Shown here piece by piece: positions 9,685-24,964 of a DNA stretch of 64,000 bases (its first letter is position 1; each line of letters opens with the position of its first letter). This DNA is from a virus. The notes below the pieces were generated by a model. The model had not been told where the DNA came from, searched no databases, and was given only the letters and a program-made list of their open reading frames with translations. A program made the translations under genes and the position numbers. Where the stretch lies: the IMG/VR virus record IMGVR_UViG_3300031999_000009, positions 19,274 through 83,273 of that record, one strand, 5' to 3'.

Positions 9685-10487
9685 TGTCGAACTTCCTCTA
9701 CACACGTCCGACTGAGCGCTTGGCCGGGACGTTGGCGGTGAACTCAGGCGTTGTCGACTCGGCCTATTTGCCGGCGAACCTCGACGACGGATTCCCGCAC
9801 AAGCCCGCGAAGCTGACGGGCACGACCGGGTCATGGACTCGCGATCTCGGGTCCGCGCTGCAGGTTGACTTCTGCGCGGTCTTCCATCACAACTTAGCGG
9901 CGGCCGTCGACTTGCGACTGCAGGGCCACACGTCTGATGCGTGGGGCGGGCCAGACGTGAACCTGGCGTTCACTGTGGTCGCTGCGCACGCGGATGGCTT
10001 CACCAAGAACGTCTACATCGACTTGACAGGGTTGCTATCGGCAGCAGGACGCACCAAGCGCTGGTGGCGGTTGCTTGTCAATTCCGCGAACACGTCTGCC
10101 GTCGCCGTGGGCGAGTGGGCCATGTATTCAGCCGTCCGCAACTTCGGTGTTCGCAACATCAGCAAGGGGTCCGATCGCACGACGCGTCGTCCTGCGCTGA
10201 CGCACGAGACAGAGCTCCTGGTCAAGCGGTCCTACGACCTCGGCACGACCATCCGCGGGGTCAAAGTGACCGCTGAGTCCACCGACCTGACGCTCGCGGA
10301 CATTGACGCCTGGCATCGCTCCTCGTCCGGCGGCGTGAAGCCGTTCACGATCGTGCCGAACAAGGACGAAGACGAGCCGTGGTTCGTGACGTTCCAGGCC
10401 GAGGATCTGGCGTGGAAGCGCGAGAACCGCAACTACAATCCGCTGAGCCTTGAGTTTCAAGAGGTGTCGCGCGGGCTGACACTCTGA
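9684..10487 (+). CDS. Distal tail (Dit-like) protein
   Basis: TAATG-coupled to the tape measure gene; 267 aa ending LEFQEV. Confidence 0.6.
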   Translation: MSNFLYTRPTERLAGTLAVNSGVVDSAYLPANLDDGFPHKPAKLTGTTGSWTRDLGSALQVDFCAVFHHNLAAAVDLRLQGHTSDAWGGPDVNLAFTVVAAHADGFTKNVYIDLTGLLSAAGRTKRWWRLLVNSANTSAVAVGEWAMYSAVRNFGVRNISKGSDRTTRRPALTHETELLVKRSYDLGTTIRGVKVTAESTDLTLADIDAWHRSSSGGVKPFTIVPNKDEDEPWFVTFQAEDLAWKRENRNYNPLSLEFQEVSRGLTL

Positions 10488-10494
10488 GGTAAAG

Positions 10495-11229
10495 ATGTCC
10501 AACGTCGCTACGCACATTTTCGTGTCGGTGGGCCCGGACGGGGCCGACGCGACGCAGATCCAGCCACTTCGCGATTGGAACGAGGGCCACAAGTTCGGTG
10601 GCGGTTCGAACAACCAGTTCCTCCAGCGCGATACCGGCGACGCGACGTATGGGGCCAAGTGGAGCACGGGCCTGACCTACGACGGCACGACGCTGTCGAT
10701 TGCCAGCGCCATCGCCATCGCCGGCAACACGAACAACACCATCACGGGCACGGTGGCTGGCGCCTACACGACCACCATCACGAACTCCTCAGCGAACGCG
10801 GCGGCCTATGCCGGGCTCGCGCTGACCACGAACTCGGTGTCGCCGTCGTTGCTGCGGGCGATGTCCTCGGCCTTCACGCCGGTGAACGGCGCTCGCGCGG
10901 ATGGCGCACAGTGGATCAACGCTGCGGGTGCTGGCGGCCTGGACCTGGCCGCAGGCCACGCCAGCGGAGTTATCACGTTTTGGACGAACGGCGCGGAACG
11001 CCTCCGCATCACGGCAGCTGGCCTGCTCACGTTCGGTGGCACGTCGAACGCGTTCCCCGCCTTGAAGCGGTCCAGCGCCGACGTGCAGGTGCGACTGGCT
11101 GACGACTCGGCTTACGCCACGTTGGATTGCCTGGGGTTGAAGGCCAGCGGCGCAGCCGGTGCGAGCTTTGGTCCAGCGGCGGTGGCGTCGATTACGGTGG
11201 TGAACGGTATTGTGACGGCGATTTCGTAG
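10495..11229 (+). CDS. Tail fibre-like minor virion protein
   Basis: F.TNGAERLRITAAG fibre repeat motif; C-terminal ITVVNGIVTAIS. Confidence 0.6.
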   Translation: MSNVATHIFVSVGPDGADATQIQPLRDWNEGHKFGGGSNNQFLQRDTGDATYGAKWSTGLTYDGTTLSIASAIAIAGNTNNTITGTVAGAYTTTITNSSANAAAYAGLALTTNSVSPSLLRAMSSAFTPVNGARADGAQWINAAGAGGLDLAAGHASGVITFWTNGAERLRITAAGLLTFGGTSNAFPALKRSSADVQVRLADDSAYATLDCLGLKASGAAGASFGPAAVASITVVNGIVTAIS

Positions 11230-11248
11230 ACAAAGGAGACGATGACGA

Positions 11249-11635
11249 ATGAAGAGGGAACTGACGTTCGAAGCGGATCACGGCAAGTTGTTCGAGTCGC
11301 TACACCTCGCGTTGCGCCTTGGCCGGAGCAATCAGCAGTCCGCCCCCGGCAAGGCCACTCTGCGCGCCGAGCGTGACATCTACCGCACGTTCGAGGCCAT
11401 CTCCATGCCTGACCCGAAGAAACAGGAGGTCCGGTGCACGTGCGGGCGCGTGGTGTTCGAGCAGGACACCAAGGCTCGCGTGTTGCGGCCAGCTGGCGGC
11501 ACCGTCGTGCTGACTCAGGCCGAGGTTGAACTCCTGCAGGACCGCATCGACAAGGGCTTCTGGAGCGGCGACACCGGATTCGACATGGCCGATGCGTTGG
11601 ACTTCCTCGGCACGGCGAGGGAACGAAAGGATTAG
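11249..11635 (+). CDS. Hypothetical protein (possible fibre chaperone)
   Basis: AAGGAG RBS; 128 aa following the fibre gene. Confidence 0.45.
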   Translation: MKRELTFEADHGKLFESLHLALRLGRSNQQSAPGKATLRAERDIYRTFEAISMPDPKKQEVRCTCGRVVFEQDTKARVLRPAGGTVVLTQAEVELLQDRIDKGFWSGDTGFDMADALDFLGTARERKD

Positions 11636-11636
11636 C

Positions 11637-12800
11637 GTGGGCTTCTACGGCGGCCAGAACGGTGGTTACGATCCGGTTGGCTTCTTCACTGAAGGAGAGG
11701 TGTCCCTTCCTGAGACGGGCACGTTCCTGACGTGGGTCGAGTTCACCGACAGCGCGGATGCGACGAACGTCTGGTCGATGCAGGCGCTGGTTGACCCGTC
11801 CACCTACTACGGCGGTTTCAAGGAGCCTCGCGTCATCGAGATGGGAGCCCTGGTGCGTGCGTTGTCCGACATCAACGGCACGTATCAGGGCGCTGACTTC
11901 CAACTCGTGCTGTCCGACAACGACCGCCTGGTGCGTGGGAAACTCAAGGCGTCCTCGACGAAGTTCTTCCTGAATCGGTCCTTGGTCGTGCGGATGATCG
12001 ACGACGCATCCCGCCGCGAGGGATTGACGCCGAGAACCATCATGCGCGGGCTCGTGGCTGATTACCGCCCACTGCCAGACCTCAAGTTCTCCCTGGGTGC
12101 GCAAGACGTCATCACGCGTCGCTTCTCGTCACAAATCGCGTCGCAGAGCCAGGTGCCGAAGCGCACGATCACGTTGGATGACTTCCCCGAGGCTCCACCT
12201 GACACGGTGGGCAAGCCCGTGCCGATCATCTACGGCGTGGTGTCTGACGAGAACGAGCAAAGCGTCATCGTCGGCACGCAGCCCAAATTCGTTGCGACCG
12301 GGAACATGACCTACACGAACCATGGCACCGCCGGCACGTGGAACGTGACCTACGTGGTGACACTCGTGGGCGATGAGACGGCCTACCCGCCGTGGGCGGG
12401 CGAGAACCAGCAGGACGAGCGCGTGATTGGCACGCTCGTCATCCCGAACTGCATTGGTCCGAACGAATTCGTGCAGGGCTCTCGCTACACGACGATCGAA
12501 TGGGACCAGCCATTCGGGTTCGCGACGAAAATCTATGGCCGCTTCAAGGATGGGAACAGCTTCAAGGGTGGCACGTTCGGCTACATGGCCTACGTGCCGA
12601 AATACATCACTGAGGGCGTGCTCGCGACCGACCGCGTGATCTTCCTTGAGGGGTGGTTCAACGCTTCGCAGGACCAGTTCCAGCCACCGACGAACAACAT
12701 GTATGTCTCGGGGACGTTCGCGGCGGGGAACACGGTGCTGGTCGACAACGCCAGGGGAGTCATTCAGCCGATCTACGTCGGCCCCAAGCGGTTCAAGTAG
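11637..12800 (+). CDS. Baseplate hub / tail tip protein, N-terminal part
   Basis: GKPVPIIYG motif typical of tail-tip (lambda gpJ-like) hub proteins; ends abruptly at PIYVGPKRFK. Confidence 0.6.
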   Translation: MGFYGGQNGGYDPVGFFTEGEVSLPETGTFLTWVEFTDSADATNVWSMQALVDPSTYYGGFKEPRVIEMGALVRALSDINGTYQGADFQLVLSDNDRLVRGKLKASSTKFFLNRSLVVRMIDDASRREGLTPRTIMRGLVADYRPLPDLKFSLGAQDVITRRFSSQIASQSQVPKRTITLDDFPEAPPDTVGKPVPIIYGVVSDENEQSVIVGTQPKFVATGNMTYTNHGTAGTWNVTYVVTLVGDETAYPPWAGENQQDERVIGTLVIPNCIGPNEFVQGSRYTTIEWDQPFGFATKIYGRFKDGNSFKGGTFGYMAYVPKYITEGVLATDRVIFLEGWFNASQDQFQPPTNNMYVSGTFAAGNTVLVDNARGVIQPIYVGPKRFK

Positions 12801-15800
12801 ATGGCGCGCATCGGAGCGTTCGGCCCACTTGTGGGTTACGACTCAGCAGACTGCGGCGCTAGCGGTTTCACGGCTGGAAACAGCGGCGCGCCCATGCCTC
12901 GCAACTCTCACGACGGCACGGGTATGGGCTACGCGCTTCGCTCCTACAGCAATAGCTTGATGTCGCCTCGCTATGGCGACAACGGCGTGACTCAGGTCGC
13001 CAAGCTTGCCGCTTACACACGCTTCTGGATGCGGATTCGCCGGTATCCGCGCGCGATTCCTACGGACCTTGTCGGAGAGTGTTCGTTCTTCGGTTGGCAA
13101 GGTAACCAGCAGGGCGGGCCAATGGCGACGCTCTACCTCACTCCTGGTGGCCAGATTCGCGTGATGAACGAGGGAAACGCCCTCGCAGCGAACTACAACT
13201 CCATGTATCTGTCGCCACCCGTTCCGCTGAACGAATGGTTCAAATACGAAGTCGCAGTCATCCCCTCGCACAACGCCGGCGTCATCAAGTTTCGCGTGAG
13301 CCGTGAAGACGGCACCTACCTATTCGACGCAGGGAACCTCGGCAGCAGCCTGCTTGAAGAAGGGATCAACGCCTGGAACGGTGTCACCAGCCAGCAAGTC
13401 GTCATCACGACGTTCGGTCGCCACGTCGGGTCGACGAATTTGGGGTGCGACCTCGACCTATCGCATGGGGCATGGGATGACGCTGATTTCCCTGTCGACT
13501 CAAGGATGTCGCTCGTTCCAGTGGTCGGGTTGGGCACGTATAACTTGTGGACCGGCGGTCGTCCCGACTGGCAGGCCCGTAACATGCAGAGCGGCAGCGG
13601 TGGCGCTGAGCAAGTATCCACGACAGCTGCGGCTGACTTCAACAACCGCCAGAGCTACCGACTGAAGAATCTGCGCGAGTGTGGAATCACAGGGAATATC
13701 TACCACTGGCGGATCGCGCTCAACAACACCGCAGGCGGCGCCAGCGGTGCGATTCGCTACTTCATCCGCATCAACGGCACCATTTACGAGACGCCAACGC
13801 TGAACACGGCAGGGTCGCCGCTGAACTGGCAATCATGGACCTTTTCCGGTGTCGTTATCACTCCAGACGACGATCTCGAAATCGGTGTCGGCGGCGGCAG
13901 CGCTGGCACGATGGGGATGGGCGGCATGTGCCTGCTTGTCGACCACGACTCACCTATCACCGAATTCGCTGGTGGCGACTTCGAGATCCAGAATGTGTCT
14001 TGGGTTGGCACTGGAGGGGCTGGCCAGTCGGTGACGTTGCCGTTCATTCCCCACATGCTTCTGTGGTGGCCGCGCACGGACGTGACGATCGGTAGCGGGA
14101 GCTATCCACCCGGAGGCATGTGGTGGGACACGCTGTCTGGGTGCCACGACCAGGCGTCTCCTGGCCCTCGCCGTGACCAGATCAGGGTCTTCGAAGACCG
14201 CGAGGCGCAGACGGCCACGCTCTCGATCGTGGGCAACTACACCCACATGAACGCGGCAGGCATCACGTATGACTGCCTTTGCGTGCGCGATCCACAGAAC
14301 CGTATTCACGCGCGCGGAAACATCTCCCAGCGCGCGCAGACGATTCCCGTGAATACCGACGATGCGGATTATCCCATCAACGCCGGCACGTCCACGCCAG
14401 AGTTGTTCAGCGTGTTCGCGCCGGAAGCGATGTTTCTCTATGGGGAGTCTGACAACACGTCCCTGACGGCCTACTTTCGCGGGCTGAAGCAATCGGGCGA
14501 TGCCACGTTGCCGTGGGGCCCCGCCGTCGCCGTGACGGACGTGATTCAGGCATTGACCGCCAGTGGGTGGCAAGCTGGCACGCTTGCTTACCAGACGAAT
14601 CAGATTGACGGCGTATTCATCGGGTTTCGCACGAATTCGTTCCAGACGTCGAGTCCATTCGCGATCGCGTTCTATCAGGGAGACGCGAGCGGCGGTGGGC
14701 TGGCGCCTGGGATCAATCGCACGATCCCGCTGGCGCTGGGCGGGAAAGTTCCAGAATGGGTCGTCGTCTTTCCCCCCACAAGCGCGCAGCGTTACATGAA
14801 GAGCGCCTTCACGCTCGGCAAGATTGTCGCCTCCTACAGCGAGTCCAACAAGGACAGCGCGGAGACGCTGAACGCTGCGGGCTTCACGCGGACGGCCCAG
14901 ACGTTCCAGACATCAAACCCTGCTGGATCAGTTGAGAAGATCACGTTCTATCTCAAGAAGACCGGCGTGCCGACTGGCACGATGCGGGCGAAGGTGTGGT
15001 TGACCAGCGCTGGAGCGCCGACCGGCGCACTCCAGATCGCATTGAGCGCCACCGTGGACGTGTCAACGCTTTCTGACTCAGCGTTCGCGCTCGTGGACTT
15101 CACGTTTCCGTCAGACGAGAAGATCGTCCTCCTCAACAACACCACCTATGCCGCGGTTCTCGAGTATCTCGGTGGCGATGCGTCGAACTACGTCGAGGTC
15201 GGACAAGACGCCAGCGCTCCTGCCGCGACTGGGTCCAAATACAACTGGAACGGTGCGGTCTGGGCCATTGACACCGAAGATCTGTGCTTCTACGTGTATC
15301 TCGAGAGTGCTCGTGTCTGGGCCGCGGCCGGTGACACGACGAACGCGATCGTTGACTTGGTCGCGGACGGCGTGGTTGTCAACAACTCGCTGAACGATGG
15401 CGTGCTGCAGGGCTCCTACCCTGAGTCCAACTTCGCGGCCTCTACCGAGAAGCTCGACGGCAGCCCCACGGCGACCGCCCAGACCTTCACGTCGGCTTCG
15501 TCGGGAGAGCTCGCCTCTGCGATGTTCTACCTCAAGAAGACTGGTCTGCCACTGGGCACCTATGCGGCAAAGCTCTATGCGACGGTCGCTGGCGTGCCGA
15601 CCGGCGCCGCGCTGGCGACGAGCGACGCGCAGTTGGCTGGCGATCTCGACAACACCAACTACGAGATGATTCGTCTCACGTTCACTGGCGCGAACCGGAT
15701 CACGCTTGCTGCGGCGACCGTCTACGCCATCGCGATTGAATATACCGGCACGGCGTCCGACTACATCGACGTCGCCCAGGACAACACGGCCCCGACCCAC

Positions 15801-17219
15801 GCGGGCGTCAAATACAATTTCACGGGGGCGTGGGCGAGCGATACCCCAGACCTGATCTTCTACCTGTTTACAGCCAGCGCCGGCTGGTATACCGCCCTGG
15901 CGTGGACGACCGGGCTCGACGCCTTGGGCGTGCTGCCGGACGGTCTGTGGCACAAGTTCTTGGTTGCTGGCCACGCGTGCAAGTCGATCGACTCATGGTA
16001 TGTCGGTGGCATCAGGCAACCGACGTTCAGCGCCCAGGGCGACCCGGACACGGAAGCCTATTTCCTGATTCCCGGCTATTCTGCCTACGACAACGCCTTC
16101 GGCACGAACGTCACGACCGAGACGATCAATGGTCGCCTCTACACGGTGTGCTATGTGAAGGAGGGCGGGAACAGCCCGATCGACGTCGAGAGCATCCGAA
16201 ATGGGTCGACACCGTTCTCGTTGAACGTGCAGGGCATTGAAGACGTGGGAAACGGGACTGGCACGGTCATCTCGCGTTCCTTCGACATCTACAAGCACGC
16301 GATGCAGAACTGGGTCTTCGGAGACTACCAAGCGGGGGCCTGGCTGTCGACGCCGACGTTTCCTGATTCTGAGGGTGTCCTGTTGATGCGCGAGGAGAGC
16401 TTCAGCGAGGCGTCCGCGCTCTCCGCCCGTCGCGTCGGTGGAGGTTACGTTGGCGCCGGAGGGTTCGGGCTCGACGGCAATTTCATGTCGGTGCGCGAGG
16501 CCGTCCGCGTCCTGAACGTGTCCTGTGACTGCGACTCCGGGCTCAATCGCCTGTGCCAGTTCTTCGTCTCCATGACCGACGACGCGGCGGCTGTGCTTAC
16601 AGCTAGCCCCGTCTTCGTGGACGCGGATGATGTGAAGCGCGGATCGTTCTCTGTTGATGACGATTTCGCGAATCACTTCAACGTGGTGCCCTTCGCTTAC
16701 GCGAAGGACTACGTGTCCGGGTCGAAGACGCCGTGGCGTGGGGTTGATGAAGCTCGCGACCAGGCGTCCATTGACGGCTACGAAGACACACTGACCATGC
16801 CCGTTCAAGAGCTGGGCTTCGTGCGTGATCAAGTCACCGCCTCGGATATTGCACATCGGAAACTGCTGCGCCACAAAGATCCGCCGCGTCGCGTGCAGTT
16901 CACGACGCCTGTGCAGGGCTACAACGCGGAGCTCGGAGACGTTCGCCTGCTCTCTCACTACGAAGGTGTCGGCGCGACCGGGTGGAGTCGCCAGCCTCTG
17001 CGCGTGCATCGCCACGCCGCCAACCTGAACGACGACACGGTGCAGTTCGAGTGCTACGACTTGAGTCGTCTGTTCGAGTCGGCGTTCATCCTCGGCAACG
17101 AGGTCGTGCTGAACCCATCGTGGGCGGCAGCCCCGCCGCTGGATCGCGTCTATGGCTACTTGGCTGACGAGACAACTGAGGTCTTCTCAGACGGCGAACC
17201 TGGGAAGCGAGTGCGCTGA
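12801..17219 (+). CDS. Tail tip / receptor-binding protein paralog 1 (variable N-terminal domains + conserved hub-like C-terminus)
   Basis: 1472 aa; last ~430 aa (GLWHKFLVAGHA...YGYLADE...PGKRVR) shared with the next two ORFs. Confidence 0.75.
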   Translation: MARIGAFGPLVGYDSADCGASGFTAGNSGAPMPRNSHDGTGMGYALRSYSNSLMSPRYGDNGVTQVAKLAAYTRFWMRIRRYPRAIPTDLVGECSFFGWQGNQQGGPMATLYLTPGGQIRVMNEGNALAANYNSMYLSPPVPLNEWFKYEVAVIPSHNAGVIKFRVSREDGTYLFDAGNLGSSLLEEGINAWNGVTSQQVVITTFGRHVGSTNLGCDLDLSHGAWDDADFPVDSRMSLVPVVGLGTYNLWTGGRPDWQARNMQSGSGGAEQVSTTAAADFNNRQSYRLKNLRECGITGNIYHWRIALNNTAGGASGAIRYFIRINGTIYETPTLNTAGSPLNWQSWTFSGVVITPDDDLEIGVGGGSAGTMGMGGMCLLVDHDSPITEFAGGDFEIQNVSWVGTGGAGQSVTLPFIPHMLLWWPRTDVTIGSGSYPPGGMWWDTLSGCHDQASPGPRRDQIRVFEDREAQTATLSIVGNYTHMNAAGITYDCLCVRDPQNRIHARGNISQRAQTIPVNTDDADYPINAGTSTPELFSVFAPEAMFLYGESDNTSLTAYFRGLKQSGDATLPWGPAVAVTDVIQALTASGWQAGTLAYQTNQIDGVFIGFRTNSFQTSSPFAIAFYQGDASGGGLAPGINRTIPLALGGKVPEWVVVFPPTSAQRYMKSAFTLGKIVASYSESNKDSAETLNAAGFTRTAQTFQTSNPAGSVEKITFYLKKTGVPTGTMRAKVWLTSAGAPTGALQIALSATVDVSTLSDSAFALVDFTFPSDEKIVLLNNTTYAAVLEYLGGDASNYVEVGQDASAPAATGSKYNWNGAVWAIDTEDLCFYVYLESARVWAAAGDTTNAIVDLVADGVVVNNSLNDGVLQGSYPESNFAASTEKLDGSPTATAQTFTSASSGELASAMFYLKKTGLPLGTYAAKLYATVAGVPTGAALATSDAQLAGDLDNTNYEMIRLTFTGANRITLAAATVYAIAIEYTGTASDYIDVAQDNTAPTHAGVKYNFTGAWASDTPDLIFYLFTASAGWYTALAWTTGLDALGVLPDGLWHKFLVAGHACKSIDSWYVGGIRQPTFSAQGDPDTEAYFLIPGYSAYDNAFGTNVTTETINGRLYTVCYVKEGGNSPIDVESIRNGSTPFSLNVQGIEDVGNGTGTVISRSFDIYKHAMQNWVFGDYQAGAWLSTPTFPDSEGVLLMREESFSEASALSARRVGGGYVGAGGFGLDGNFMSVREAVRVLNVSCDCDSGLNRLCQFFVSMTDDAAAVLTASPVFVDADDVKRGSFSVDDDFANHFNVVPFAYAKDYVSGSKTPWRGVDEARDQASIDGYEDTLTMPVQELGFVRDQVTASDIAHRKLLRHKDPPRRVQFTTPVQGYNAELGDVRLLSHYEGVGATGWSRQPLRVHRHAANLNDDTVQFECYDLSRLFESAFILGNEVVLNPSWAAAPPLDRVYGYLADETTEVFSDGEPGKRVR

Positions 17220-20200
17220 TGGCCCGCATTGCGGTCTGCGGATTCGAAATTCCATCGGCCGGCGCCGAGGCTTTGCAGGCTGGCGCGCAGGGCGCCGGAG
17301 ACAATGGTCGGTGTGGCGGTGTCGCGTTCACGATGGACAACATCCGGGTTGGCAGCAGCCGAAACTACCGGGTGGACTTCAACAACATCGGGACTATCTA
17401 CGTTCGTTTCTATATTCGATTCCGAGAATACCCGGTCGCAGGGACTGGCGCTCCAGTCGCGACGACTGGCACTGTCATCTTCGTGGCGGACGGATCGATC
17501 GAGGGAGGGGCCGGCGAGTTCTACATGACCGCTGAGTATGGTGGATCGCTGAAATGTTGGTCGGATGGGAACGCGGCAGCTCCGACACAAATGGGCGCCT
17601 CCACCCAGACGATGGCGCTCAACAAGTGGTATCGGGTCAATCTGACGCTCGCGTGGGGGAACGGCTCGGTTAATTCGGGCTCTGCCATTGTGGCCATCAC
17701 AGACCCAGACGACCTGGACCACCCCACGTCGACGCTGCACAGAAACGGCGCCAACGTGAACGGTATCAATTCGAATGGCACCATCACCGGGATCTACATG
17801 GGGTCGCAAAGCTCGACGCTTCCCGTCAACGGGGGCAAGATCGACTTTGACGACCTTGTTGTGGATAACGCCAGCGCACCGGGCCCAGGGTTCATCACGC
17901 TGTGTCGAATTGTTGGCCAGGGTTCTTACAATGGATGGGGAGCCCCAGACTATCGAGGGATGAGAAAGTTCCCCATCGACACCATCGCTCCATTCGGCTG
18001 TTCGACAACCACTGCTGGCGACCGCGTTTCGTTCCAAGTGGAGTCGCCAGGCGCGGCGCTCGGCGTGACTGGCACGATCAATGTGCTTCGCATGATTGCC
18101 CACGGCTCGCTCTCTAAATCCAACTGGCGGCTGATACTCCGCGCTAACGGCGTGGAGTCTTCGTCTCCGCTTCAGGCTGCGTCGCCTACGGGCAATTGGA
18201 AGAGCATCCTGACAGGCCAATTCCAAGGTGGTTGGTGGTTCGACGGGCCCATCGCCCCCGGTGGCACTTACGAAGTAGGCATAGATGGTGGCGATACTCC
18301 CGCTGGGTCGGATTCTTGCCAATTCCTCGGCCTCATCGTCGAGCATTCCTCGCCGGATTGGACACCGCCGATTGAGACTGGCGACATCCAGATCAAACGC
18401 GGAAGTTTCGTTGGCACTGGCGCGAACTTCATCGACGTGGCCATCGGGTTCGCCACGCCTGCTCGACCCACGGCGATCTTCGCTCGAATTTCATCTGGCG
18501 ACACAGGGGCATTCTGGTGTCAGGCGAATGGTCGCCGCGGCGAATACTCCACGCGCTTTAATGATGGCAACACGCTGGCCGGCATTGCACACGTCGATAC
18601 AGACGTGTTCACACTGGCGAAGCTGAACGGCCTGAACAATCTTGGCGCCACGATTTACTGGCTGGCAATTTCCGACCCGGAGAAGCGGATGGTCGAGTCC
18701 GTCACGCGTGACTCGACTGGCGATGACACTGACAACGACGTCGTCAAGCTGACTCAACCAGGCTTCGTGATTGAGGCCATGATCGCGACGGGTCAGTCCG
18801 ACGTGGTGACGACCACGTTTTCGCATTACAAAGGGTTGCAGCATGGTGATCTCAGTAGCCATTTGAACCAGAACCTGGCCCCGCAGGCCGATGCGATTCA
18901 GAGAATGGGCACTGGAGAGTTCGAGCTCGGCCTCCTGTCAGGCTTTGGGAGCTTCAACGTCACGCGCGTCCCAGCGATGTGCTTTCGCCGCGCTGGTGTG
19001 TTCTACGTGAACACCCTCTGCGAGATCGGTAGCTACGTCGGCGACAACACCATTGGACGGGTCATCCCGTTCACGTGGAACGCGACCGCTCTTGGCATGC
19101 TGTTGGTGGTCCCGTCCGTGGTGACGACGAAGCGCGCGCTGCGATGGGGGATGGCCGCCACCAACAACGAATGGAACGCCACGGGCGCCTTCGCCACGGG
19201 CATCACGGCGGCTGACCATACAGGATTCACGGTCAGCACCGTCACGAATAATTTCAATGCGACCGGCGTGACGTATCACTACTTGGCCTTTGCCGACGGT
19301 GTCGACGCGGCGCCGTTCGTGCCGTTCCTGCCCGCCGGCGTCTGGCACGAGTATTTGGTTGCCGGCCACGCGGTGAAGTCCATCGACTCGTGGTATGTGG
19401 GCGGCGTGCGCCAGGAGATCGCGAGCGCGGAAGGCGACCCCGATCTCGATGCCTATTTCCTCATCCCTGGATATTCAGCCTGGTCTGCAGTCTTCGGTGC
19501 TGGCGCCGCGCCTCGACAGGTCGTTCGAAACGGGCATACCTACACGCTGATCTACGTGAAAGAGGGCGGCGTCAGCCCGCTCGACATCGAAGCGATCCGT
19601 GGAGGCACGACGCCGATCACGCTCAACGTGCAGGGGGTCGAGACGGTTGGCGACACCACGGGCACGGTGATTCAGGACTCGCTCGATATCTACAAGCACC
19701 TGATGCAGAACTGGATCTTTGGCGACTACCAAACGGGCGCATGGTTGGCGACGCCGACGTTCCCAGATAGCGACGGGTTGCCCATGATGTTCGAGCCGAG
19801 CTTCGACGCCGCCAAGACGCTCGCGTCAAGCCGCGTGGGCGGAGGCTATGTGGGCGCGGGAGGGTTCGGGCTCGAGGGCGCCTTCATCAACATCCGAGAA
19901 GCCATCCGTGTGCTGAATCTGTCGTGCGACGTTGACGCTGGCCTGAACCGCCGCTGCCAGTTCTTCGTGGCTATGACCGACGATTCTGCGACGGCGTTGA
20001 ACTATTCCCAGGAATTGGTTGACGCGAATGATGTCGTGCGTGGGTCGCTGGACGTCTTAGACGACTTCTCCAACCACTTCAACATCATCCCGTTCGTCTA
20101 CGCCCGCGACTACGTGGGCGGGTCCAACACGCCCTGGCGCGGCACCGACGAAGTGCGCTCGGCTGAGTCGATTGTCACCTACGAAATGTCACTCGTGATG

Positions 20201-20617
20201 ACGTCGCAGGAATTGGCCTTCGTGCGCGACCAGGCGACTGCCATCGACATTGCCAGGCGGAAGTTGATCCGACACAAAGACCCGCCTCGGACGGCACGAT
20301 TCCGCATGCACGTGGGCGGCAACAACGTCGATCTCGGAGACGTCAGACTCCTGACGCACTACGGCGGGATCGGCGGGTCTGGCTGGTCGCAGCAGCCCCT
20401 GCGCGTGCAGCGTCACACGGTGGCGCCTGACAATACCGTTGAGTTCGAGTGCCTTGACTTGAGCCGCCTGTTCGAAGCCGTCTTCATTCTCGGCGACGAG
20501 CTGGTGTTGCCATCGTCCTGGCCGGCGGCCTCGACCGCGCAGCGACTCTATGGCTACTTGGCCGACGAGCTCACGGCCGAATTCTCCACCGGCGATCCCG
20601 GAAAGCGGGTGCGGTAG
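17219..20617 (+). CDS. Tail tip / receptor-binding protein paralog 2
   Basis: 1132 aa; MARI start; GVWHEYLVAGHA...PGKRVR C-terminus. Confidence 0.75.
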   Translation: MARIAVCGFEIPSAGAEALQAGAQGAGDNGRCGGVAFTMDNIRVGSSRNYRVDFNNIGTIYVRFYIRFREYPVAGTGAPVATTGTVIFVADGSIEGGAGEFYMTAEYGGSLKCWSDGNAAAPTQMGASTQTMALNKWYRVNLTLAWGNGSVNSGSAIVAITDPDDLDHPTSTLHRNGANVNGINSNGTITGIYMGSQSSTLPVNGGKIDFDDLVVDNASAPGPGFITLCRIVGQGSYNGWGAPDYRGMRKFPIDTIAPFGCSTTTAGDRVSFQVESPGAALGVTGTINVLRMIAHGSLSKSNWRLILRANGVESSSPLQAASPTGNWKSILTGQFQGGWWFDGPIAPGGTYEVGIDGGDTPAGSDSCQFLGLIVEHSSPDWTPPIETGDIQIKRGSFVGTGANFIDVAIGFATPARPTAIFARISSGDTGAFWCQANGRRGEYSTRFNDGNTLAGIAHVDTDVFTLAKLNGLNNLGATIYWLAISDPEKRMVESVTRDSTGDDTDNDVVKLTQPGFVIEAMIATGQSDVVTTTFSHYKGLQHGDLSSHLNQNLAPQADAIQRMGTGEFELGLLSGFGSFNVTRVPAMCFRRAGVFYVNTLCEIGSYVGDNTIGRVIPFTWNATALGMLLVVPSVVTTKRALRWGMAATNNEWNATGAFATGITAADHTGFTVSTVTNNFNATGVTYHYLAFADGVDAAPFVPFLPAGVWHEYLVAGHAVKSIDSWYVGGVRQEIASAEGDPDLDAYFLIPGYSAWSAVFGAGAAPRQVVRNGHTYTLIYVKEGGVSPLDIEAIRGGTTPITLNVQGVETVGDTTGTVIQDSLDIYKHLMQNWIFGDYQTGAWLATPTFPDSDGLPMMFEPSFDAAKTLASSRVGGGYVGAGGFGLEGAFINIREAIRVLNLSCDVDAGLNRRCQFFVAMTDDSATALNYSQELVDANDVVRGSLDVLDDFSNHFNIIPFVYARDYVGGSNTPWRGTDEVRSAESIVTYEMSLVMTSQELAFVRDQATAIDIARRKLIRHKDPPRTARFRMHVGGNNVDLGDVRLLTHYGGIGGSGWSQQPLRVQRHTVAPDNTVEFECLDLSRLFEAVFILGDELVLPSSWPAASTAQRLYGYLADELTAEFSTGDPGKRVR

Positions 20618-23600
20618 ATGGCTCGCATCCTCACGTCTGGCTTTGAGCTGTCAGGCACGGGAGGGTCTGGCGAGGGCTGGGGCTTCGCCCGCGCGAGCGA
20701 CAACGTCACGTCTGGGCGGCTCGGTGGTCGCTGTGCTGCGCTGTCCGGTTACAGTTCCGGTGTTGCTGGCGTGGTGGGGTCGAGTAACTCGTTCAACACC
20801 CAGGCGCAGGAGTTCTGGATTCGGTTCTACCTCTACGTCGACACGCTTCCAGGGCCAGGCGGCTTGCGCATCCTCGGCGGCTTCGGCTCTGGCGATCCCG
20901 GATCTGAGCATGCTTGGTATTTGGTGCTGACTTCCGCCGGAAGGCTGGATGGCTACAACGACGGCGCTGACGTGCGCACCAAGATCGGAACAGGCTCGTC
21001 CGTGCTCAGCGTTGGCCGGTGGTATCGGATCAACGTCCACGTCCGATTCAGGGATCGGGTCGGGAACAACTCCAACAATCTGTCAGTGACGATTGACGGC
21101 GGGCTCGACTGGAGTGTTTCTACTACTGGCGCCCTGAGTGGCGGGTTGAACTTCTGGACGGTGAACCAGGACACTTCAACCGCTTCCACGTTCGGCACCG
21201 GGCTGTCGATCAACCCATTCAACGCCACGGACGCAGAACGCGACGGCGGCTTCGTGCTGATCGACGATCTCGTTGCTGACAACGCTTTCATTCCGGGCGC
21301 TGGTGGCGTCACGCTCTTGCATGTGACGGGGCAGGGCACCGACAACGCCTGGACGACATCTGGAGACTGGCGAAACGTGGTGGCGGCTCCTCCACGCAAG
21401 GGCCAGAACCTGTCGAATAGCACAGCGTCTGCGTTGGCGACGACTTTCACCATCGAAAGTATGGCCAGCAAAGGCTTGGCTGGCGTCACGATCAAGTCCG
21501 CTCGCCTACTTCTGGCTGGGCGACCTATCCGGGCTAACTGGAGCTATCGACTTCGAAGGAACGGCGCGGTAATTGACAGTCCGCTGACTGGCGCCGGCAT
21601 TGAAGGTTGGTTCACGAAGTCGCCCGGTGATATTGGGAGTGGCACGAGCGGTTGGTTTCTCGACGTCGGCACGGTCCCGCTGTCCACGACAGACGTGCTT
21701 GAGATTGGCGTCGTTGACGGACCCGCCGGCGCTGGCACCTCGTTTCTTTACGGCGCCTACCTGGTGGTCGATTGGGAGGGCGCCGACCCGGCAACGTCCG
21801 TGCTGAACGGCACAATCAAAACCGTGTCCGGAACCTACGTGGGCAACGGCACGTCGCAGCTCGTTGCGTTCGCCGATCCTACGTTCAAGCCCACGCTGTT
21901 GTTCATTGCCGGCGACAATAACGGGGCCGGCGACCGGGTCATCTGGTGCGATGGCTGGGGCGCGGAGGGCGACGGCGCCGTGCGCTGGTCCACTTCAGAT
22001 TCCTCGGTTGCCGATCTTGTGCGCGCGACGACCGGCAGCTTCAGTGTCAAGGGTGCATCGAACTCACTCAACCAGTCCGCCGAGACGTATCGGTATTTCG
22101 CTGTTCGCGATGAAGCCGGACGGTTCACGCGGAGCGGCATGCGCGCGGTGAACGTCTTCGGTGGCACTGGCGACAATTGGAACGTGCCGCTTAATGTCGG
22201 GCTTGTGGCCCCGTCGTTCCGTGTGGATGCCCTGCTGGCTTATGGACAGTTTTTCGGAGTGTCCAACCAGGTGCTCTACCGAGACACATTCTACACAGGC
22301 GATTCGTCGTCGGTGATGGCGACAAACACCTCGCCTGTAGCTGACGGAATCCAATCGCTCGGCATCAACACGTTCCAGATGGGCAAGCTCCACACGGTCG
22401 GTGGCAGCACAGACACCACGGCCTGGCTCGCCATGAGCAACCAGGCGAGCTTGTTCACGCTGCGTCGCTTGTTGACGGTCGGAACCTACACAGGAGACGG
22501 CTCCGGCGCTCGCGTGATTCCAGTCGCCGGCTTGGATGTAAATCCGTCCTTCCTGTTCGTGGTCCCAGAAAGCGCCGGGCTGCGCTACTACCGTTTCTTC
22601 GCCGATGGCGCTGGCGCGAACTCTCGTGACTGGATCGCCGGCAACGCCGTCGCCACCGCCATCACCGCGTTCGATACGGTGGCGCAGTTCAGCGTGTCGT
22701 CGACGCTGAACGTCGCAGGCACGGTGTATCACTACGTGATGTTCGGCGAGGGCGATGACCCCAGCGGCGTCCCGCCAGAGGGGTTGTGGCACGAATTCCT
22801 CGTGTGTGGTCACGCGGTGAAGGCGGTCGAGTCCTGGTATATCGGCGGTGTGCGCCAAGAGGTCGCGAGCGCGGAAGGCAGCCCCACGGACGCCTATTTC
22901 CTTGTGCCGGGCTATTCCGCGTGGAACGTGGCATTCCCCGGTGTGACCACCGTGACGCGAAACGGTCGGCGTTACACCGTGATCTACCTGAAGGAAGGCG
23001 GCACGAGCCCACTCGACGTGGAGGCGATCCGCGCGGGCGATACTCCGCTCACAGTGAACGTCCAAGGCATTGAGGACGTGGGCGACGGTAGCGGCGCGCT
23101 CGTGACCAACGCCATGGCGGCCTACCGGCACGCGATGCAGAACTGGGTCTTGGGAAACTACCAGGCTGGAAGCTGGCTCGCTTCGCCGACGTTTCCAGAC
23201 TCAGAGCTCGTCTCCATGATCGACGAGGTGAGCTTCACGGTCGCTGACGAAGCCGCACAACTGCGCCTTCCTGGTGGCTACGTGGTCGCCGGCGCGGTGG
23301 GGTTCGACGGCAACTTCGTCAGCGTTCGTGACTTCGTGCGGCAATTGAACGCGTCGTTCGATGTCGACTCTGGCCTGAACAGACGTTGCCAGTTCTTCGT
23401 GTCGATGATCGACGATTCCGTCAGCGGACTGACGCCACAGCTTGAATTGAGCGACGTGGCTGATGTGCTGAGGGGGTCGTTCGAGGTTGACGACGACTTC
23501 GCTGCGCAGTTCAACATCATCCCGTATCGCCTGCGCCGCGAATACGTCTCAGGCGCGGACCCGGAGTGGCGTCTCTCCGCCGAGGCTCGGTCAGGGGAGT

Positions 23601-24052
23601 CGATCGCGAACTACGAGGGTGAGTTTTCGTTCCCCGTCATCGACATGCACATGACCCGCGATCCGGCCACGGCGGCCGACATCGCGACTCGGAAGCTTCT
23701 GCGTCACAAGGATCCGCCCCGACGCGTGAAGTTCCGACTGTCTGCCCCCGGCCTCAACCTCGAGATCGGAGACGTGCGCGCCTTGACACATTTCGGCGGG
23801 GTTGGCCCGGCAGGCTGGAGCCGTGTGCCGGTGAGAATTCACCAGCTGGCTGCCAATCTGGCCGATAATACCGTCTCTATCGAAGGCTACGATATGTCAC
23901 GCCTCTTCTCGACGGTCTTCATCCTGGGCGACGAAGGCACGTTGAACCCTGCGTGGACCACGGCGACACTGCCTGAACGCGTGTATGGTTACTTGGCGGA
24001 CGAGGTGACGGGTGATTTCAGCAACGGCGATCCGGGGAAGCGAGTGCGCTGA
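20618..24052 (+). CDS. Tail tip / receptor-binding protein paralog 3
   Basis: 1144 aa; MARI start; GLWHEFLVCGHA...PGKRVR C-terminus. Confidence 0.75.
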   Translation: MARILTSGFELSGTGGSGEGWGFARASDNVTSGRLGGRCAALSGYSSGVAGVVGSSNSFNTQAQEFWIRFYLYVDTLPGPGGLRILGGFGSGDPGSEHAWYLVLTSAGRLDGYNDGADVRTKIGTGSSVLSVGRWYRINVHVRFRDRVGNNSNNLSVTIDGGLDWSVSTTGALSGGLNFWTVNQDTSTASTFGTGLSINPFNATDAERDGGFVLIDDLVADNAFIPGAGGVTLLHVTGQGTDNAWTTSGDWRNVVAAPPRKGQNLSNSTASALATTFTIESMASKGLAGVTIKSARLLLAGRPIRANWSYRLRRNGAVIDSPLTGAGIEGWFTKSPGDIGSGTSGWFLDVGTVPLSTTDVLEIGVVDGPAGAGTSFLYGAYLVVDWEGADPATSVLNGTIKTVSGTYVGNGTSQLVAFADPTFKPTLLFIAGDNNGAGDRVIWCDGWGAEGDGAVRWSTSDSSVADLVRATTGSFSVKGASNSLNQSAETYRYFAVRDEAGRFTRSGMRAVNVFGGTGDNWNVPLNVGLVAPSFRVDALLAYGQFFGVSNQVLYRDTFYTGDSSSVMATNTSPVADGIQSLGINTFQMGKLHTVGGSTDTTAWLAMSNQASLFTLRRLLTVGTYTGDGSGARVIPVAGLDVNPSFLFVVPESAGLRYYRFFADGAGANSRDWIAGNAVATAITAFDTVAQFSVSSTLNVAGTVYHYVMFGEGDDPSGVPPEGLWHEFLVCGHAVKAVESWYIGGVRQEVASAEGSPTDAYFLVPGYSAWNVAFPGVTTVTRNGRRYTVIYLKEGGTSPLDVEAIRAGDTPLTVNVQGIEDVGDGSGALVTNAMAAYRHAMQNWVLGNYQAGSWLASPTFPDSELVSMIDEVSFTVADEAAQLRLPGGYVVAGAVGFDGNFVSVRDFVRQLNASFDVDSGLNRRCQFFVSMIDDSVSGLTPQLELSDVADVLRGSFEVDDDFAAQFNIIPYRLRREYVSGADPEWRLSAEARSGESIANYEGEFSFPVIDMHMTRDPATAADIATRKLLRHKDPPRRVKFRLSAPGLNLEIGDVRALTHFGGVGPAGWSRVPVRIHQLAANLADNTVSIEGYDMSRLFSTVFILGDEGTLNPAWTTATLPERVYGYLADEVTGDFSNGDPGKRVR

Positions 24053-24429
24053 TGGTTGTGTATGAGATCGCCGACGGAGCGGACGATGCCAGACGCGCCG
24101 TCCTTGAATCCCTGACGCCGATGCACCTCATTCACGGCTACCGCACGGTCGAGGAGCTCAGCGCGTTTCTGGACGCTGGCTTGGGCGACATGCGCCGCGC
24201 ACAATTGAACGCCCAAATCCCAGCCGACATGCCGATCGCCTTGACTCGGGTCTGGCTGTTCTACGTGGACCGCGCGGCGGTGGACGTGTGCGCACTGCGG
24301 ATGGCGCCTGGCGCCCGCTGCGAAGCGTGGGCCCAGCCGACTGGATGGACCGAATTCTACAAGCGCATCGACGAGCTTCGCGCGATGGCGCGCCGTTACG
24401 ATCCGGCATTCACGCCGGTTCACGCATGA
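24052..24429 (+). CDS. Hypothetical protein
   Basis: TGATG-coupled, 125 aa. Confidence 0.5.
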   Translation: MVVYEIADGADDARRAVLESLTPMHLIHGYRTVEELSAFLDAGLGDMRRAQLNAQIPADMPIALTRVWLFYVDRAAVDVCALRMAPGARCEAWAQPTGWTEFYKRIDELRAMARRYDPAFTPVHA

Positions 24430-24436
24430 GGGCACC

Positions 24437-24964
24437 ATGCCGCTGACCTGGAGTGTGATTTCCGCGTTCGTGCTGGACCAAGTGTTCGGCTACCAATCGG
24501 CCAACAAGTTCCGCGAGAACCTGATCATCTTGGCTGCGCGCCGTCCTGGTCGACACCTGGGTGGGTCGCGGTTCTATCCGAACAACCTTGCCATCTCGCT
24601 GCGTGGCCAGGTGCGGGCCAAGTCCTGCACGCTGGGCCCGAGCGACTGCTTCGACTACGTGGACGTCGAGATCGACGGCACGGACCAGGCTGGAATCACT
24701 TACCAAGCCGCGGTGCAGGTGCGTGTGGCAGATCCGCTGCAGAGCATCACGCCGAAGATTCGGAACGTCACGGCGGGGAGCGATGCTGGTGTCGGCGTGG
24801 CATGCACCGCCACGGCGCCAGACTATTCAGGCGCCAACCAGCAGCAAACGATCGCGTTGAACCTCGTCACGGGGTTGAACAAGTATCGGTTGCAGTTCAC
24901 CCAAGGCTCGGTCAGCTACGATACGTGGATGACCGGCGAAATCGAGAGCTTCGCCACCTTATAA
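24437..24964 (+). CDS. Putative minor tail protein
   Basis: 175 aa; N-terminal W...ANKFRENL pattern seen at the start of fibre/baseplate proteins. Confidence 0.45.
   Translation: MPLTWSVISAFVLDQVFGYQSANKFRENLIILAARRPGRHLGGSRFYPNNLAISLRGQVRAKSCTLGPSDCFDYVDVEIDGTDQAGITYQAAVQVRVADPLQSITPKIRNVTAGSDAGVGVACTATAPDYSGANQQQTIALNLVTGLNKYRLQFTQGSVSYDTWMTGEIESFATL

What the first reader, a model, noticed from the sequence alone, without database searches (positions are those of the whole stretch)
11637..24052. Split tail-tip hub: one N-half gene plus three paralogous C-halves with different adhesin cargo
Seen: ORF 11637..12800 has the hub motif GKPVPIIYG and stops at PIYVGPKRFK. The next three ORFs all start MARI, diverge over 700-1040 aa (similar domain order, very low identity), then share a highly similar ~430-aa C-terminus beginning G[LV]WH[KE][FY]LV[AC]GHA (from ~15940, ~19335, ~22780) and ending YGYLADE...PGKRVR. 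Established: siphophage hub/Tal proteins are normally single-gene homotrimers. Inference: exactly three C-half paralogs suggests a heterotrimeric tip displaying three receptor-binding arms at once, or alternative tips giving mixed host-range progeny without an invertase.
Basis: partly seen in the sequence, partly recalled or inferred. Interest (0 to 1): 0.8.

Follow-up and report, generated by a model that had tools for sequence, protein, structure and literature searches.

The report
Split phage tail-tip hub, three C-halves
An uncultured sediment phage has cut its tail-tip hub gene into one front half and three different back halves, each carrying its own large extra domain, so its particles may display up to three different host-binding arms.

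Summary
ORF 11637-12800 (387 aa) is followed by three abutting genes. Their last ~430 aa are 55-65% identical and their first 700-1040 aa only 24-29%.

The split reading is supported. Of the 150 best representative relatives of the front half, 139 carry both halves in one protein, usually as cargo, N-half, C-half. All 14 split-type C-halves form one clade (100/100). Stand-alone N-halves lie on contigs of the same lengths as split C-halves.

The C-half is a remote relative of the lambda gpJ / TipJ hub core (Pfam Phage-tail_3). The whole block sits where relatives have one fused gene, between a Dit-like gene and two conserved downstream genes.

Five of six relatives' contig sizes show only one C-half protein, so one C-half type is enough. 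Three copies occur here and in one close relative.

Whether the three mix in one tip, form a fixed 1:1:1 trimer, or give three particle types is open. I favour non-obligate mixing (about 0.4).

The cargo fold is unknown, so "adhesin" is inference. My literature searches found no description of this arrangement. The scan had noted only this same stretch before.

The parts
9684..10487 (+). 267-aa Dit-position gene directly after the tape measure gene (5455-9684); conserved upstream neighbour of the hub gene in relatives
   Evidence: tblastn found homologs at 26-41% identity in all 14 viral loci L002-L015 and in both genome loci L023 and L024; the two short metagenome fragments L016 and L017 gave no hit. 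In several loci the homolog abuts the fused hub ORF (ORF lists). Only PHROG 8610, of unknown function, matched.
10495..11635 (+). Two small genes (244 aa, rich in G/A/T; and 128 aa) between the Dit-like gene and the N-half. Their role is unknown. They may be lineage-specific.
   Evidence: ORFs. No tblastn match in any of the 18 related loci. No Pfam, PHROG or NCBIfam hit.
11637..12800 (+). N-half of the split hub protein (387 aa, GTG start preceded by AAGGA, TAG stop directly followed by the ATG of C1)
   Evidence: Homologous to an internal or N-terminal segment of 139 of 150 fused representatives. Stand-alone orthologs P0175, P0176, P0177, P0034, P0178 and P0179 all end YVG.KRF..
12801..15932 (+). 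C1 cargo (about 1044 aa). It includes two tandem ~140-aa modules at about 14886-15311 and 15468-15881.
   Evidence: The modules are 46% identical, E 5.5e-33. The cargo is 41-45% identical to that of P0008, P0009, P0011 and P0013, and 86% to P0007. No family was recognised.
15933..17219 (+). C1 C-half (hub core, about 428 aa); its TGA stop overlaps the ATG of C2 (TGATG)
   Evidence: It groups with P0007 and P0008 at 95/94 support.
17219..19303 (+). C2 cargo (about 695 aa)
   Evidence: It is 29% identical to the C3 cargo and 25% to the C1 cargo, and 89.5% identical to P0005.
19304..20617 (+). C2 C-half (437 aa); TAG stop directly followed by the ATG of C3
   Evidence: ESM Atlas features are nearest to TipJ-family / Phage-tail_3 clusters, score 0.93.
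20618..22774 (+). C3 cargo (about 719 aa)
   Evidence: It is 36-42% identical to the N-terminal cargo of the fused hubs P0039, P0044, P0117, P0015, P0022 and P0023.
22775..24052 (+). C3 C-half (about 425 aa)
   Evidence: Weak Pfam Phage-tail_3 match at residues 1008-1059: 17.5 bits, below the cut-off of 23.
24052..24964 (+). Two conserved downstream genes (125 aa and 175 aa). They follow the hub gene in fused relatives and the last C-half gene in split relatives.
   Evidence: tblastn hits in L005-L008, L011, L016, L017 and L023 at 35-73% identity. No family was recognised.

Best explanation
The four genes are one tail-tip hub protein of the gpJ/TipJ (Phage-tail_3) kind that has been taken apart. 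In most relatives one polypeptide reads cargo, N-half, C-half. In one clade the N-half is a gene of its own and the cargo is joined directly to the C-half. This phage has three such cargo-C-half genes. I propose that the single N-half protein complements any of the three C-halves non-covalently. On this view the trimeric tip is built from three N-halves plus three C-halves drawn from the pool of C1, C2 and C3, and the paralogs are interchangeable and co-assemble without a fixed order. Most particles would then carry two or three kinds of cargo arm. The mix would be set by relative expression from one translationally coupled mRNA. SHOWN: the split, its single origin, homology of the C-half to the gpJ hub core, the position in the tail module, and intact orthologs of all four genes in a second phage. 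INFERRED: that the halves bind, that the assembly is trimeric, that the cargo binds receptors, and that the paralogs mix. The split-hub part alone I put at about 0.85. The mixing part brings the whole statement to about 0.4.
For: Fused relatives: 139 of the 150 listed representatives have the N-half and C-half in one protein, and so do 19 of the 30 hits to the C-half. All 14 IMG/VR loci and both GTDB loci have one fused copy. The junction falls in a ~10-aa variable linker. Single origin: the 14 split-type C-halves form one clade at 100/100 on a long stem. Stand-alone N-halves lie on contigs of the same lengths as split C-halves: 20987, 9754, 14740, 108058, 28212 and 13544. Hub identity: Phage-tail_3 matches 5 of 13 family members, best E 1.6e-6. 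P0023 scores 27.2 bits against a cut-off of 23, inside the part that is 40% identical to the C-half. hhalign of the C-half profile against an 11-sequence gpJ profile gives E 1.5e-4 over gpJ 269-491. Against lambda gpJ alone it gives E 7.7e-4 over 333-524, which matches lambda's own Phage-tail_3 at 330-498. The ESM Atlas score is 0.93 to TipJ clusters. Synteny is TMP, Dit-like gene, hub, then two conserved genes. All three paralogs are kept: a relative has N-half 97%, C-halves 89-94% and cargos 78-89% identical, all as full-length proteins. There is one N-half gene for three C-halves. Stop and start codons abut (TAGATG, TGATG, TAGATG), and only the N-half has a clear Shine-Dalgarno sequence. 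As precedent, T6SS VgrG paralogs, which share the gp27-like hub fold, form heterotrimers (passages in PMC8668125; the fold link is from a passage in PMC7296036).
Against: No structure could be predicted, so neither the N-half/C-half contact nor the trimer is shown. The window's own proteins do not reach Pfam's cut-off, and the gpJ link is remote (hhalign probability 35-51%). The N-half matches nothing known, neither gpL nor the gpJ N-terminus, so it may be a peripheral domain rather than part of the ring. Five of six relatives' contig sizes show one C-half only, so homotrimers work and mixing is not needed. The C-halves differ at 35-45% of positions, which is enough to have made them mutually incompatible. 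If the cargos are themselves trimeric, 24-29% identity would forbid mixed trimers. The cargo has no recognised binding domain.
Confidence: 0.42

Rival explanations
1. Three kinds of homotrimeric tip. Each particle gets three copies of one C-half plus three N-halves, so a burst contains three particle classes with different specificity. This would be bet-hedging without an invertase.
For: Relatives seem to work with one C-half gene. Only one C-half protein is on record for contig sizes 108058, 28212, 14740, 13544 and 9754. In L016 a C1-like gene is followed at once by the genes that here follow C3. The C-halves are only 55-65% identical and sit on long separate branches. The cargos are very different and could trimerise on their own.
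Against: All three are made in the same cell from abutting genes and share one N-half. Keeping them apart needs evolved incompatibility, for which there is no evidence.
Confidence: 0.22
2. Obligate 1:1:1 heterotrimer. Every tip holds C1, C2 and C3 once each in a fixed cyclic order, giving a tip with three unlike arms.
For: There are exactly three paralogs for a three-fold structure. The same three are kept in a second phage. C2 and C3 branch as deep as whole phage lineages, so the set is old. Phage heterotrimers of paralogs exist: Mysterious gp35/36/37 (passages in PMC13252515) and T1 gp48/gp49 (passages in PMC11945409).
Against: Single-C-half relatives show the ancestral state is a homotrimer. 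No interface analysis was possible. Three may simply be the current copy number. One short split-clade protein with almost no cargo (P0173, 471 aa) shows other layouts exist.
Confidence: 0.15
3. Only one paralog builds the central hub. The others are spare cassettes, are made at low level, or dock elsewhere on the tip through the same C-terminal module.
For: C1 is the copy orthologous to the single C-half of relatives: it groups with P0008 at 95/94, and its cargo type is shared with P0008, P0009, P0011, P0013 and L016. The downstream genes lack clear ribosome-binding sites, so C2 and C3 may be made in smaller amounts.
Against: C2 and C3 are full-length and conserved in a second phage. Their C-halves (89% and 94% identical) are more conserved than, or as conserved as, their cargos (89.5% and 78%), as expected for working proteins. 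A hub core domain has no known second docking site.
Confidence: 0.12
4. The shared C-terminus is not a hub part but an independent anchoring module of three fibre or spike proteins, and the N-half is a separate adaptor.
For: The link to gpJ is remote. The window's own proteins stay below Pfam's cut-off. No solved structure matches by sequence. The N-half has no known relatives outside this family.
Against: In 139 of 150 relatives both parts are one protein. In several loci that protein directly follows the Dit-like gene, the usual place of the hub. P0023 passes the Phage-tail_3 cut-off. Three independent routes point to gpJ/TipJ. No other hub candidate lies in the module.
Confidence: 0.07
5. 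Assembly artefact: strain variants of one gene were strung together.
For: The source is a metagenome contig. Logan's contigs for the probable source run break at 17117, near the C1/C2 junction.
Against: The copies are only 66-77% identical in DNA. Their cargos differ in length and sequence. Contigs of a second sample bridge both junctions. A related phage has orthologs of all three.
Confidence: 0.02

Closest known systems
Lambda tip: gpL + gpJ (TipJ family, Pfam Phage-tail_3)
   Same: It sits in the tail module after the tape measure and the distal tail gene. The C-half aligns with gpJ 269-491, which includes Phage-tail_3 at 330-498. In lambda the hub domains are also divided between two genes: gpL has HDI, and gpJ has HDII-ins, HDII, HDIII and HDIV (passage in PMC11101478).
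   Different: gpJ carries its fibre and receptor-binding domain at the C-terminus. Here the protein ends about 80 aa after the core and the large variable part is N-terminal. The N-half resembles neither gpL nor the gpJ N-terminus. Lambda has one J gene, not three.
RcGTA megatron g15 with hub protein g13
   Same: In megatron a large N-terminal part (adhesin-like 47-229, peripheral 230-744) precedes the central hub domain (745-984). The trimer forms the baseplate core, and the hub fold is shared between two proteins (passages in PMC7296036). The fused relatives here have the same order, cargo before hub core.
   Different: Megatron is one chain and one gene, with a C-terminal fibre-binding domain. 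Sequence relation to it was not tested here because I had no sequence at hand.
T6SS VgrG paralog sets
   Same: Several paralogs of a gp27-like trimeric hub/spike, each with its own cargo, occur in one genome. Heterotrimers are reported for V. cholerae and argued for A. dhakensis (passages in PMC8668125). This is the best analogy for how the system may work.
   Different: It is a different machine, and the cargo is C-terminal or bound. VgrG is not split into halves. This is not a membership claim.
Heterotrimers of paralogous phage structural proteins (Mysterious gp35/36/37; T1 gp48/gp49)
   Same: They show that neighbouring paralogs can form defined heterotrimers in virions (passages in PMC13252515 and PMC11945409).
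   Different: Those are accessory baseplate or capsid cement proteins, not the central hub.
Multi-tailspike phages with a conserved anchor and variable heads (for example CBA120 or K1-5; recalled, not checked here)
   Same: Several receptor-binding proteins share one conserved attachment module and differ in the rest.
   Different: There the conserved module is N-terminal and docks on an adaptor, and each spike is a separate homotrimer. Here the conserved module is itself the hub core.

Membership tests
gpJ / TipJ hub proteins (Pfam PF13550 Phage-tail_3) | The window's own proteins reach the Pfam gathering score for Phage-tail_3 | tested here: not met
   Only C3 matches, at 17.5 bits against a cut-off of 23 (E 0.0041). 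C1, C2 and the N-half give no match. NCBIfam gives no match for the window's proteins.
gpJ / TipJ hub proteins (Pfam PF13550 Phage-tail_3) | Homology of the C-half to a bona fide Phage-tail_3 domain, through family members and profiles | tested here: met
   P0023 scores 27.2 bits (above 23) at residues 1259-1432, inside the stretch 1082-1499 that is 40% identical to the C2 C-half. 5 of 13 members match. hhalign gives E 1.5e-4 (probability 51%) to a gpJ profile over 269-491 and E 7.7e-4 to lambda gpJ 333-524. ESM Atlas scores 0.93. The relationship is remote but consistent.
gpJ / TipJ hub proteins (Pfam PF13550 Phage-tail_3) | Gene lies after the tape measure and distal tail genes | tested here: met
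   The order is TMP 5455-9684, Dit-like gene 9684-10487, then the block. The same order with one fused gene occurs in L002-L015, L023 and L024.
gpJ / TipJ hub proteins (Pfam PF13550 Phage-tail_3) | C-terminal central fibre with receptor-binding domain, as in lambda gpJ | tested here: not met
   The C-halves end about 80 aa after the aligned core. None of lambda's fibre domains was found.
gpJ / TipJ hub proteins (Pfam PF13550 Phage-tail_3) | Trimer that closes the tail tube | not testable with these tools
Lambda-type two-gene hub (gpL + gpJ) | A gpL-like HDI / iron-sulfur partner protein | tested here: not met
   hhalign of the family profile against lambda gpL gives E 0.5. No Pfam or NCBIfam match was found for the N-half or for the 244-aa and 128-aa genes. 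gpL was a single-sequence template, so a distant relation is not excluded.
RcGTA megatron-like architecture | Large N-terminal decoration before the central hub domain in one chain | tested here: met
   This holds for fused relatives only: for example P0023, P0015 and P0039 have cargo at 1 to about 700, then the N-half, then the C-half. It is not met in the window, where the chain is cut. Sequence homology to megatron was not tested.
Split form of this family (N-half gene plus cargo-C-half gene) | Stand-alone N-half ending YVG.KRF., and a C-half protein without an N-half, in the same genome | tested here: met
   This is shown for the window. For the relatives it is inferred from equal contig lengths.

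The most novel reading that the evidence does not exclude
The tip is an obligate asymmetric heterotrimer. Three copies of the shared N-half hold C1, C2 and C3 once each in a fixed order, so every particle presents three different receptor-binding arms on a structure that is three-fold symmetric in all solved siphophage tips. The split of the hub gene would be what made this possible, because the common N-half keeps the ring interfaces constant while the C-halves diverge.
Probability: 0.15. Interest if true: 0.85.

Novelty: new variant of a known kind. Interest (0 to 1): 0.62.

Why it matters
The central hub of a long-tailed phage is treated as a symmetric homotrimer of one gene product. Here a natural lineage has cut that protein at a linker, moved the variable domain onto the back half, and multiplied the back half. 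If the halves reassemble, this is a natural example of split-protein complementation in a virion. It would also be a modular way to change or widen what the tail tip binds: swap or add a cargo-C-half cassette and keep the N-half. If the paralogs mix, one burst yields particles with combinatorial tips. That bears on how host range is broadened without inversion systems or extra side fibres, and it gives a template for engineering tail tips of laboratory phages. The family has 637 representative proteins at E <= 0.001 and no match at E <= 1e-3 to the three family proteins searched (P0003, P0030, P0033) among 50,697 deposited phage records. It is therefore also an unstudied hub type.

Tried and rejected
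Structure: structure prediction and complex prediction were closed, so fold search could not be used. No fold claim is made. Sequence searches of the PDB with three family profiles found only chance-level hits.

A viral-contig scan with C2 alone found nothing. The genome-contig scan with the split-type profile found nothing. The metagenome scan gave only two short fragments.

Families: PHROGs gave nothing for the four proteins, and NCBIfam gave nothing for them.

Cultured phages: tblastn of C2 and of P0030 gave no match. P0033 gave one unrelated hit covering 14% of it.

N-half identity: it showed no similarity to lambda gpL (E 0.5) or to a gpJ-family profile (E 0.057 with a nonsensical alignment). 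I tested the idea that the N-half and C-half are internal repeats, like the two tube-like hub domains. It was rejected (E 0.16-0.26).

A viral-contig scan with lambda J returned only 98-100% identical copies, which were useless for a profile. I built the gpJ profile from ten named phage records instead.

Cargo identity: Pfam gave no hit in the window's cargos, and among 15 cargo-bearing proteins only scattered hits. ESM Atlas scores of 0.87-0.88 are below the level that counts.

Stop-codon readthrough: the N-half and C1, and likewise C2 and C3, are in one frame separated by a single TAG. However, the genome's 8 tRNAs include no suppressor, and TAG ends other genes too. The idea was dropped.

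Recombination between the repeats: the DNA copies are 66-77% identical with no long exact stretch. Laid contigs of four runs show no joint between equivalent positions. There is only one low-depth joint (18634 to 23517, depth 2.4, 36 foreign letters between, side 21) in X4, which I take for a chimera.

Expression: no RNA holder was listed.

Earlier notes of the scan concern only this same stretch.

Papers: searches found no paper that describes a hub gene split into halves with multiplied C-halves. I saw listings and abstracts, and passages of PMC11101478, PMC7296036, PMC13252515, PMC11945409 and PMC8668125. Supplements were not opened.

Full report
WHAT IS THERE. The window is bases 19274-83273 of an 83,273-base IMG/VR virus record, classed linear with an estimated completeness of 68%. 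It has 62% G+C. The phage occurs in sediment metagenomes.

On the + strand the tape measure gene (5455-9684) is followed by a 267-aa gene, then 244-aa and 128-aa genes. Next come ORF 11637-12800 and three large abutting genes, 12801-17219, 17219-20617 and 20618-24052.

The 387-aa protein contains GKPVPIIYG and ends PIYVGPKRFK. The three large proteins start MARI and end PGKRVR.

- Their last ~430 residues are 55-65% identical.
- Their first 700-1040 residues are 24-29% identical but still alignable.
- C1 has an extra ~340 residues holding two tandem ~140-aa modules that are 46% identical.

The genome has one N-half and three C-halves and no further copy.

Logan contigs of the probable source run cover the block in two pieces without a difference. 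Contigs of a second sample bridge the C1/C2 and C2/C3 junctions.

IS IT A SPLIT GENE? Yes. An exhaustive HMMER search with the N-half found 637 representative proteins at E <= 0.001. Of the 150 listed, BLASTP finds the C-half in the same protein in 139. The other 11 are N-half only.

- Two of these 11 (P0034, P0035) end YVGPKRF., like the window's protein.
- Nine stop inside or just after the N-half core. I did not examine them further; they may be cut at contig ends.

The search with the C-half gave 30 proteins. Ten are cargo plus C-half without an N-half, and two of those ten are the window's own. Nineteen also contain the N-half by BLASTP. One (P0033) shows N-half motifs by eye only.

The usual order is variable N-terminal part, then N-half, then an insertion, then C-half. 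P0023, P0015, P0039, P0044 and P0117 even carry a cargo 36-42% identical to the C3 cargo in front of the N-half.

In fused proteins the join reads ...VP.IYVG, about ten variable residues, then W..FL..GHA.... The window's N-half stops five residues after YVG, and its C-halves become conserved six to eight residues before the W. The cut therefore lies in a linker and no conserved sequence is lost.

All 14 IMG/VR loci and both GTDB loci that encode a relative have one fused copy.

ONE ORIGIN, AND HOW MANY C-HALVES? Two trees of the C-half were built.

- The first has 67 rows and used the quick method. Rows with under 380 aligned residues or under 36% identity were left out, as was the alternative-start copy P0006.
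- The second has 23 rows and used the careful method.
- In both, all split-type C-halves form one clade with 100 or 100/100 support on a long stem.
- Inside the clade the order is unresolved. Only C1 with P0007 and P0008 is supported (95/94). C2 and C3 each sit with their ortholog on deep branches.

Stand-alone N-halves at 57-97% identity are on record for contigs of 20987, 9754, 14740, 108058, 28212 and 13544 bases. These are the same lengths as the contigs of P0005+P0010, P0008, P0012, P0009, P0011 and P0013. I take each pair to be one contig.

Only the 20987 size shows more than one C-half protein. The other five show one, in the searches for lengths of 622-1981 and 30-621 residues.

In the metagenome fragment L016, a C1-like gene is followed at once by homologs of the two genes that here follow C3.

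So the split system seems to run with one C-half in most relatives. The triple is a feature of this phage and one close relative, in which all four proteins are full length:

- N-half 97% identical;
- C-halves 92%, 89% and 94% identical;
- cargos 86%, 89.5% and 78% identical.

C3's cargo is nearer to the cargos of fused hubs of other phages (up to 42%) than to those of C1 or C2, while its C-half is nearest to C1 and C2. Cargo modules have therefore been exchanged between hub genes.

WHAT IS THE PROTEIN? No library names the window's proteins, and no solved structure matches by sequence. The tie to known biology comes through the family.

- Phage-tail_3 matches 5 of 13 members.
- It passes Pfam's cut-off in P0023, inside the part homologous to the C-half.
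- The family profile aligns with lambda gpJ 333-524 at E 7.7e-4.
- The C-half profile aligns with an 11-sequence gpJ profile over gpJ 269-491 at E 1.5e-4, probability 51%.
- Lambda's own Phage-tail_3 is residues 330-498.
- The language-model search puts the C-half next to TipJ-family clusters.

According to passages of PMC11101478, gpJ provides hub domains HDII to HDIV, while gpL provides HDI. According to passages of PMC7296036, the RcGTA megatron has adhesin-like and peripheral domains in front of its central hub domain, which resembles T4 gp27 and VgrG.

The gene position fits. The 267-aa gene after the tape measure is conserved in all 16 full-length related loci, and in several of them the fused hub ORF abuts it. 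The two genes after C3 are conserved after the hub gene. The block N-half+C1+C2+C3 therefore stands where relatives have one hub gene.

Unlike gpJ, the proteins end soon after the core. The only large variable parts are N-terminal.

The N-half resembles nothing known, neither gpL nor the gpJ N-terminus. It is not a repeat of the C-half. Whether it is part of the ring or a peripheral domain is open.

HOW IT MOST LIKELY WORKS. The split, its single origin, the hub-core homology, the position, and the conservation of all four genes are shown. The rest is inferred.

I infer that the N-half binds the C-half where the covalent link used to be, and that three such pairs form the tip. I also infer that the cargo, now hanging on the new N-terminus of the C-half, is the receptor-binding or surface-binding arm.

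With one N-half gene and three C-half genes made from abutting, probably translationally coupled reading frames (TAGATG, TGATG, TAGATG; a clear AAGGA only before the N-half), the default is that the three C-halves compete for the same partner and co-assemble. Random mixing at equal supply would give the following shares (simple arithmetic):

- 2 in 9 tips with all three arms;
- 6 in 9 tips with two kinds;
- 1 in 9 tips with one kind.

I put this reading at about 0.4. Separate homotrimeric tips get 0.22, a fixed 1:1:1 heterotrimer 0.15, only one paralog in the hub 0.12, not a hub 0.07, and artefact 0.02.

For mixing speak the shared partner and the precedent of VgrG heterotrimers (passages in PMC8668125). 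Against it speak the working single-copy relatives, the 35-45% divergence of the C-halves, and the possibility that the cargos trimerise on their own.

ORIGIN (speculative). Two short resemblances may mark the events.

- The N-half begins LP..G..LTWVEF and the C-half begins LP.G.WH.F. A deletion between these two W.EF sites in a cargo-N-C gene would give cargo-C in frame.
- All stand-alone N-halves end KRF plus one residue (K, R, V or L), directly before the next gene's ATG. The C-halves end KR[VL]R before the next ATG. This is as if the N-half gene were an N-C gene that lost the body of its C-half.

Complementary losses in a tandem duplicate would explain the layout. I did not test this.

COMPARISON AND NOVELTY. 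The nearest known systems are as follows.

- The lambda gpL/gpJ and RcGTA g13/g15 tips have the same kind of hub core and the same place in the module. Their hub fold is already shared between two genes, and in megatron the decorations are N-terminal.
- For the mode of action, sets of VgrG paralogs with different cargo are the closest analogy.

What is different here is the cut between the N-half and the C-half, the transfer of the cargo to the C-half, and the three C-half genes. Seven full-text searches found no description of such a hub. The deposited phage collection holds no relative of the three family proteins I searched at E <= 1e-3.

I class it as a new variant of a known kind. It would become a more basic novelty if the tip proved to be an obligate asymmetric heterotrimer.

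LIMITS. There are no structure predictions and no gene contexts for the Logan relatives. There is no expression or virion data and no known host; two fused relatives sit in MAGs labelled Acetobacteraceae and Acidobacteria, which is weak evidence. The link to gpJ is remote.

Noticed in passing
window 12798-12803 and 20615-20620: The N-half and C1, and likewise C2 and C3, lie in the same reading frame separated by a single TAG directly followed by ATG. Readthrough of TAG would give N-half-cargo-C-half in one chain. No suppressor tRNA is encoded, and TAG also ends other genes.
   Followed up: partly
window 12783-12800, 17202-17219, 20600-20617: The N-half ends PKRFK, and all stand-alone orthologs end KRF plus one residue. 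The C-halves end GKRVR. Both tails stand directly before an ATG-GCN-CGC (MAR) start. This may be a remnant of the C-half's end left on the N-half gene, or a functional basic tail.
   Followed up: partly
window 14886-15311 and 15468-15881: There are two tandem ~140-aa modules (46% identical, E 5.5e-33) in the C1 cargo, with the motif FYLKKTG.P.GT. The same module type occurs in L016. No Pfam family matched.
   Followed up: partly
window 10495-11635: A 244-aa G/A/T-rich protein and a 128-aa protein lie between the Dit-like gene and the N-half. They have no counterpart in any of 18 related loci. They could be an extra small fibre and its helper.
   Followed up: partly
window 24052-24964: Two small genes (125 and 175 aa) always follow the hub gene or genes in this family, at up to 73% identity, and have no known family. 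They are candidates for further tip or assembly proteins.
   Followed up: partly
own genome G000:C1:368-1900 (outside the window): ARAGORN finds 8 tRNA genes (Met, 4 x Leu, Tyr, Ser, Gln) and a tmRNA gene with tag AQEAFELPIAA at the left end of the virus record.
   Followed up: no
protein P0022 (1851 aa, ENA): A fused relative has a further ~235-aa insertion inside the C-half, between C-half positions 154 and 161. The precomputed Pfam hits Laminin_G_3 and Laminin_G_2 are on record for this protein, but their position was not determined. The hub core therefore tolerates large insertions.
   Followed up: no
protein P0173 (471 aa, contig of 2086 bases): This split-clade C-half (57% identical to C2) has only about 40 residues in front of it. 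That is a C-half almost without cargo, if the gene call is complete.
   Followed up: partly
window 18634 / 23517, run X4: One low-depth contig (2.4) joins the C2 cargo to the C3 C-half, with 36 unrelated letters between. I took it for a chimera, not a recombinant.
   Followed up: partly
window 12801 versus 12894: The protein collection holds C1 as a 1441-aa product (P0006) that starts 31 codons downstream. The MAR start, conserved in paralogs and in fused relatives, argues for 12801.
   Followed up: partly
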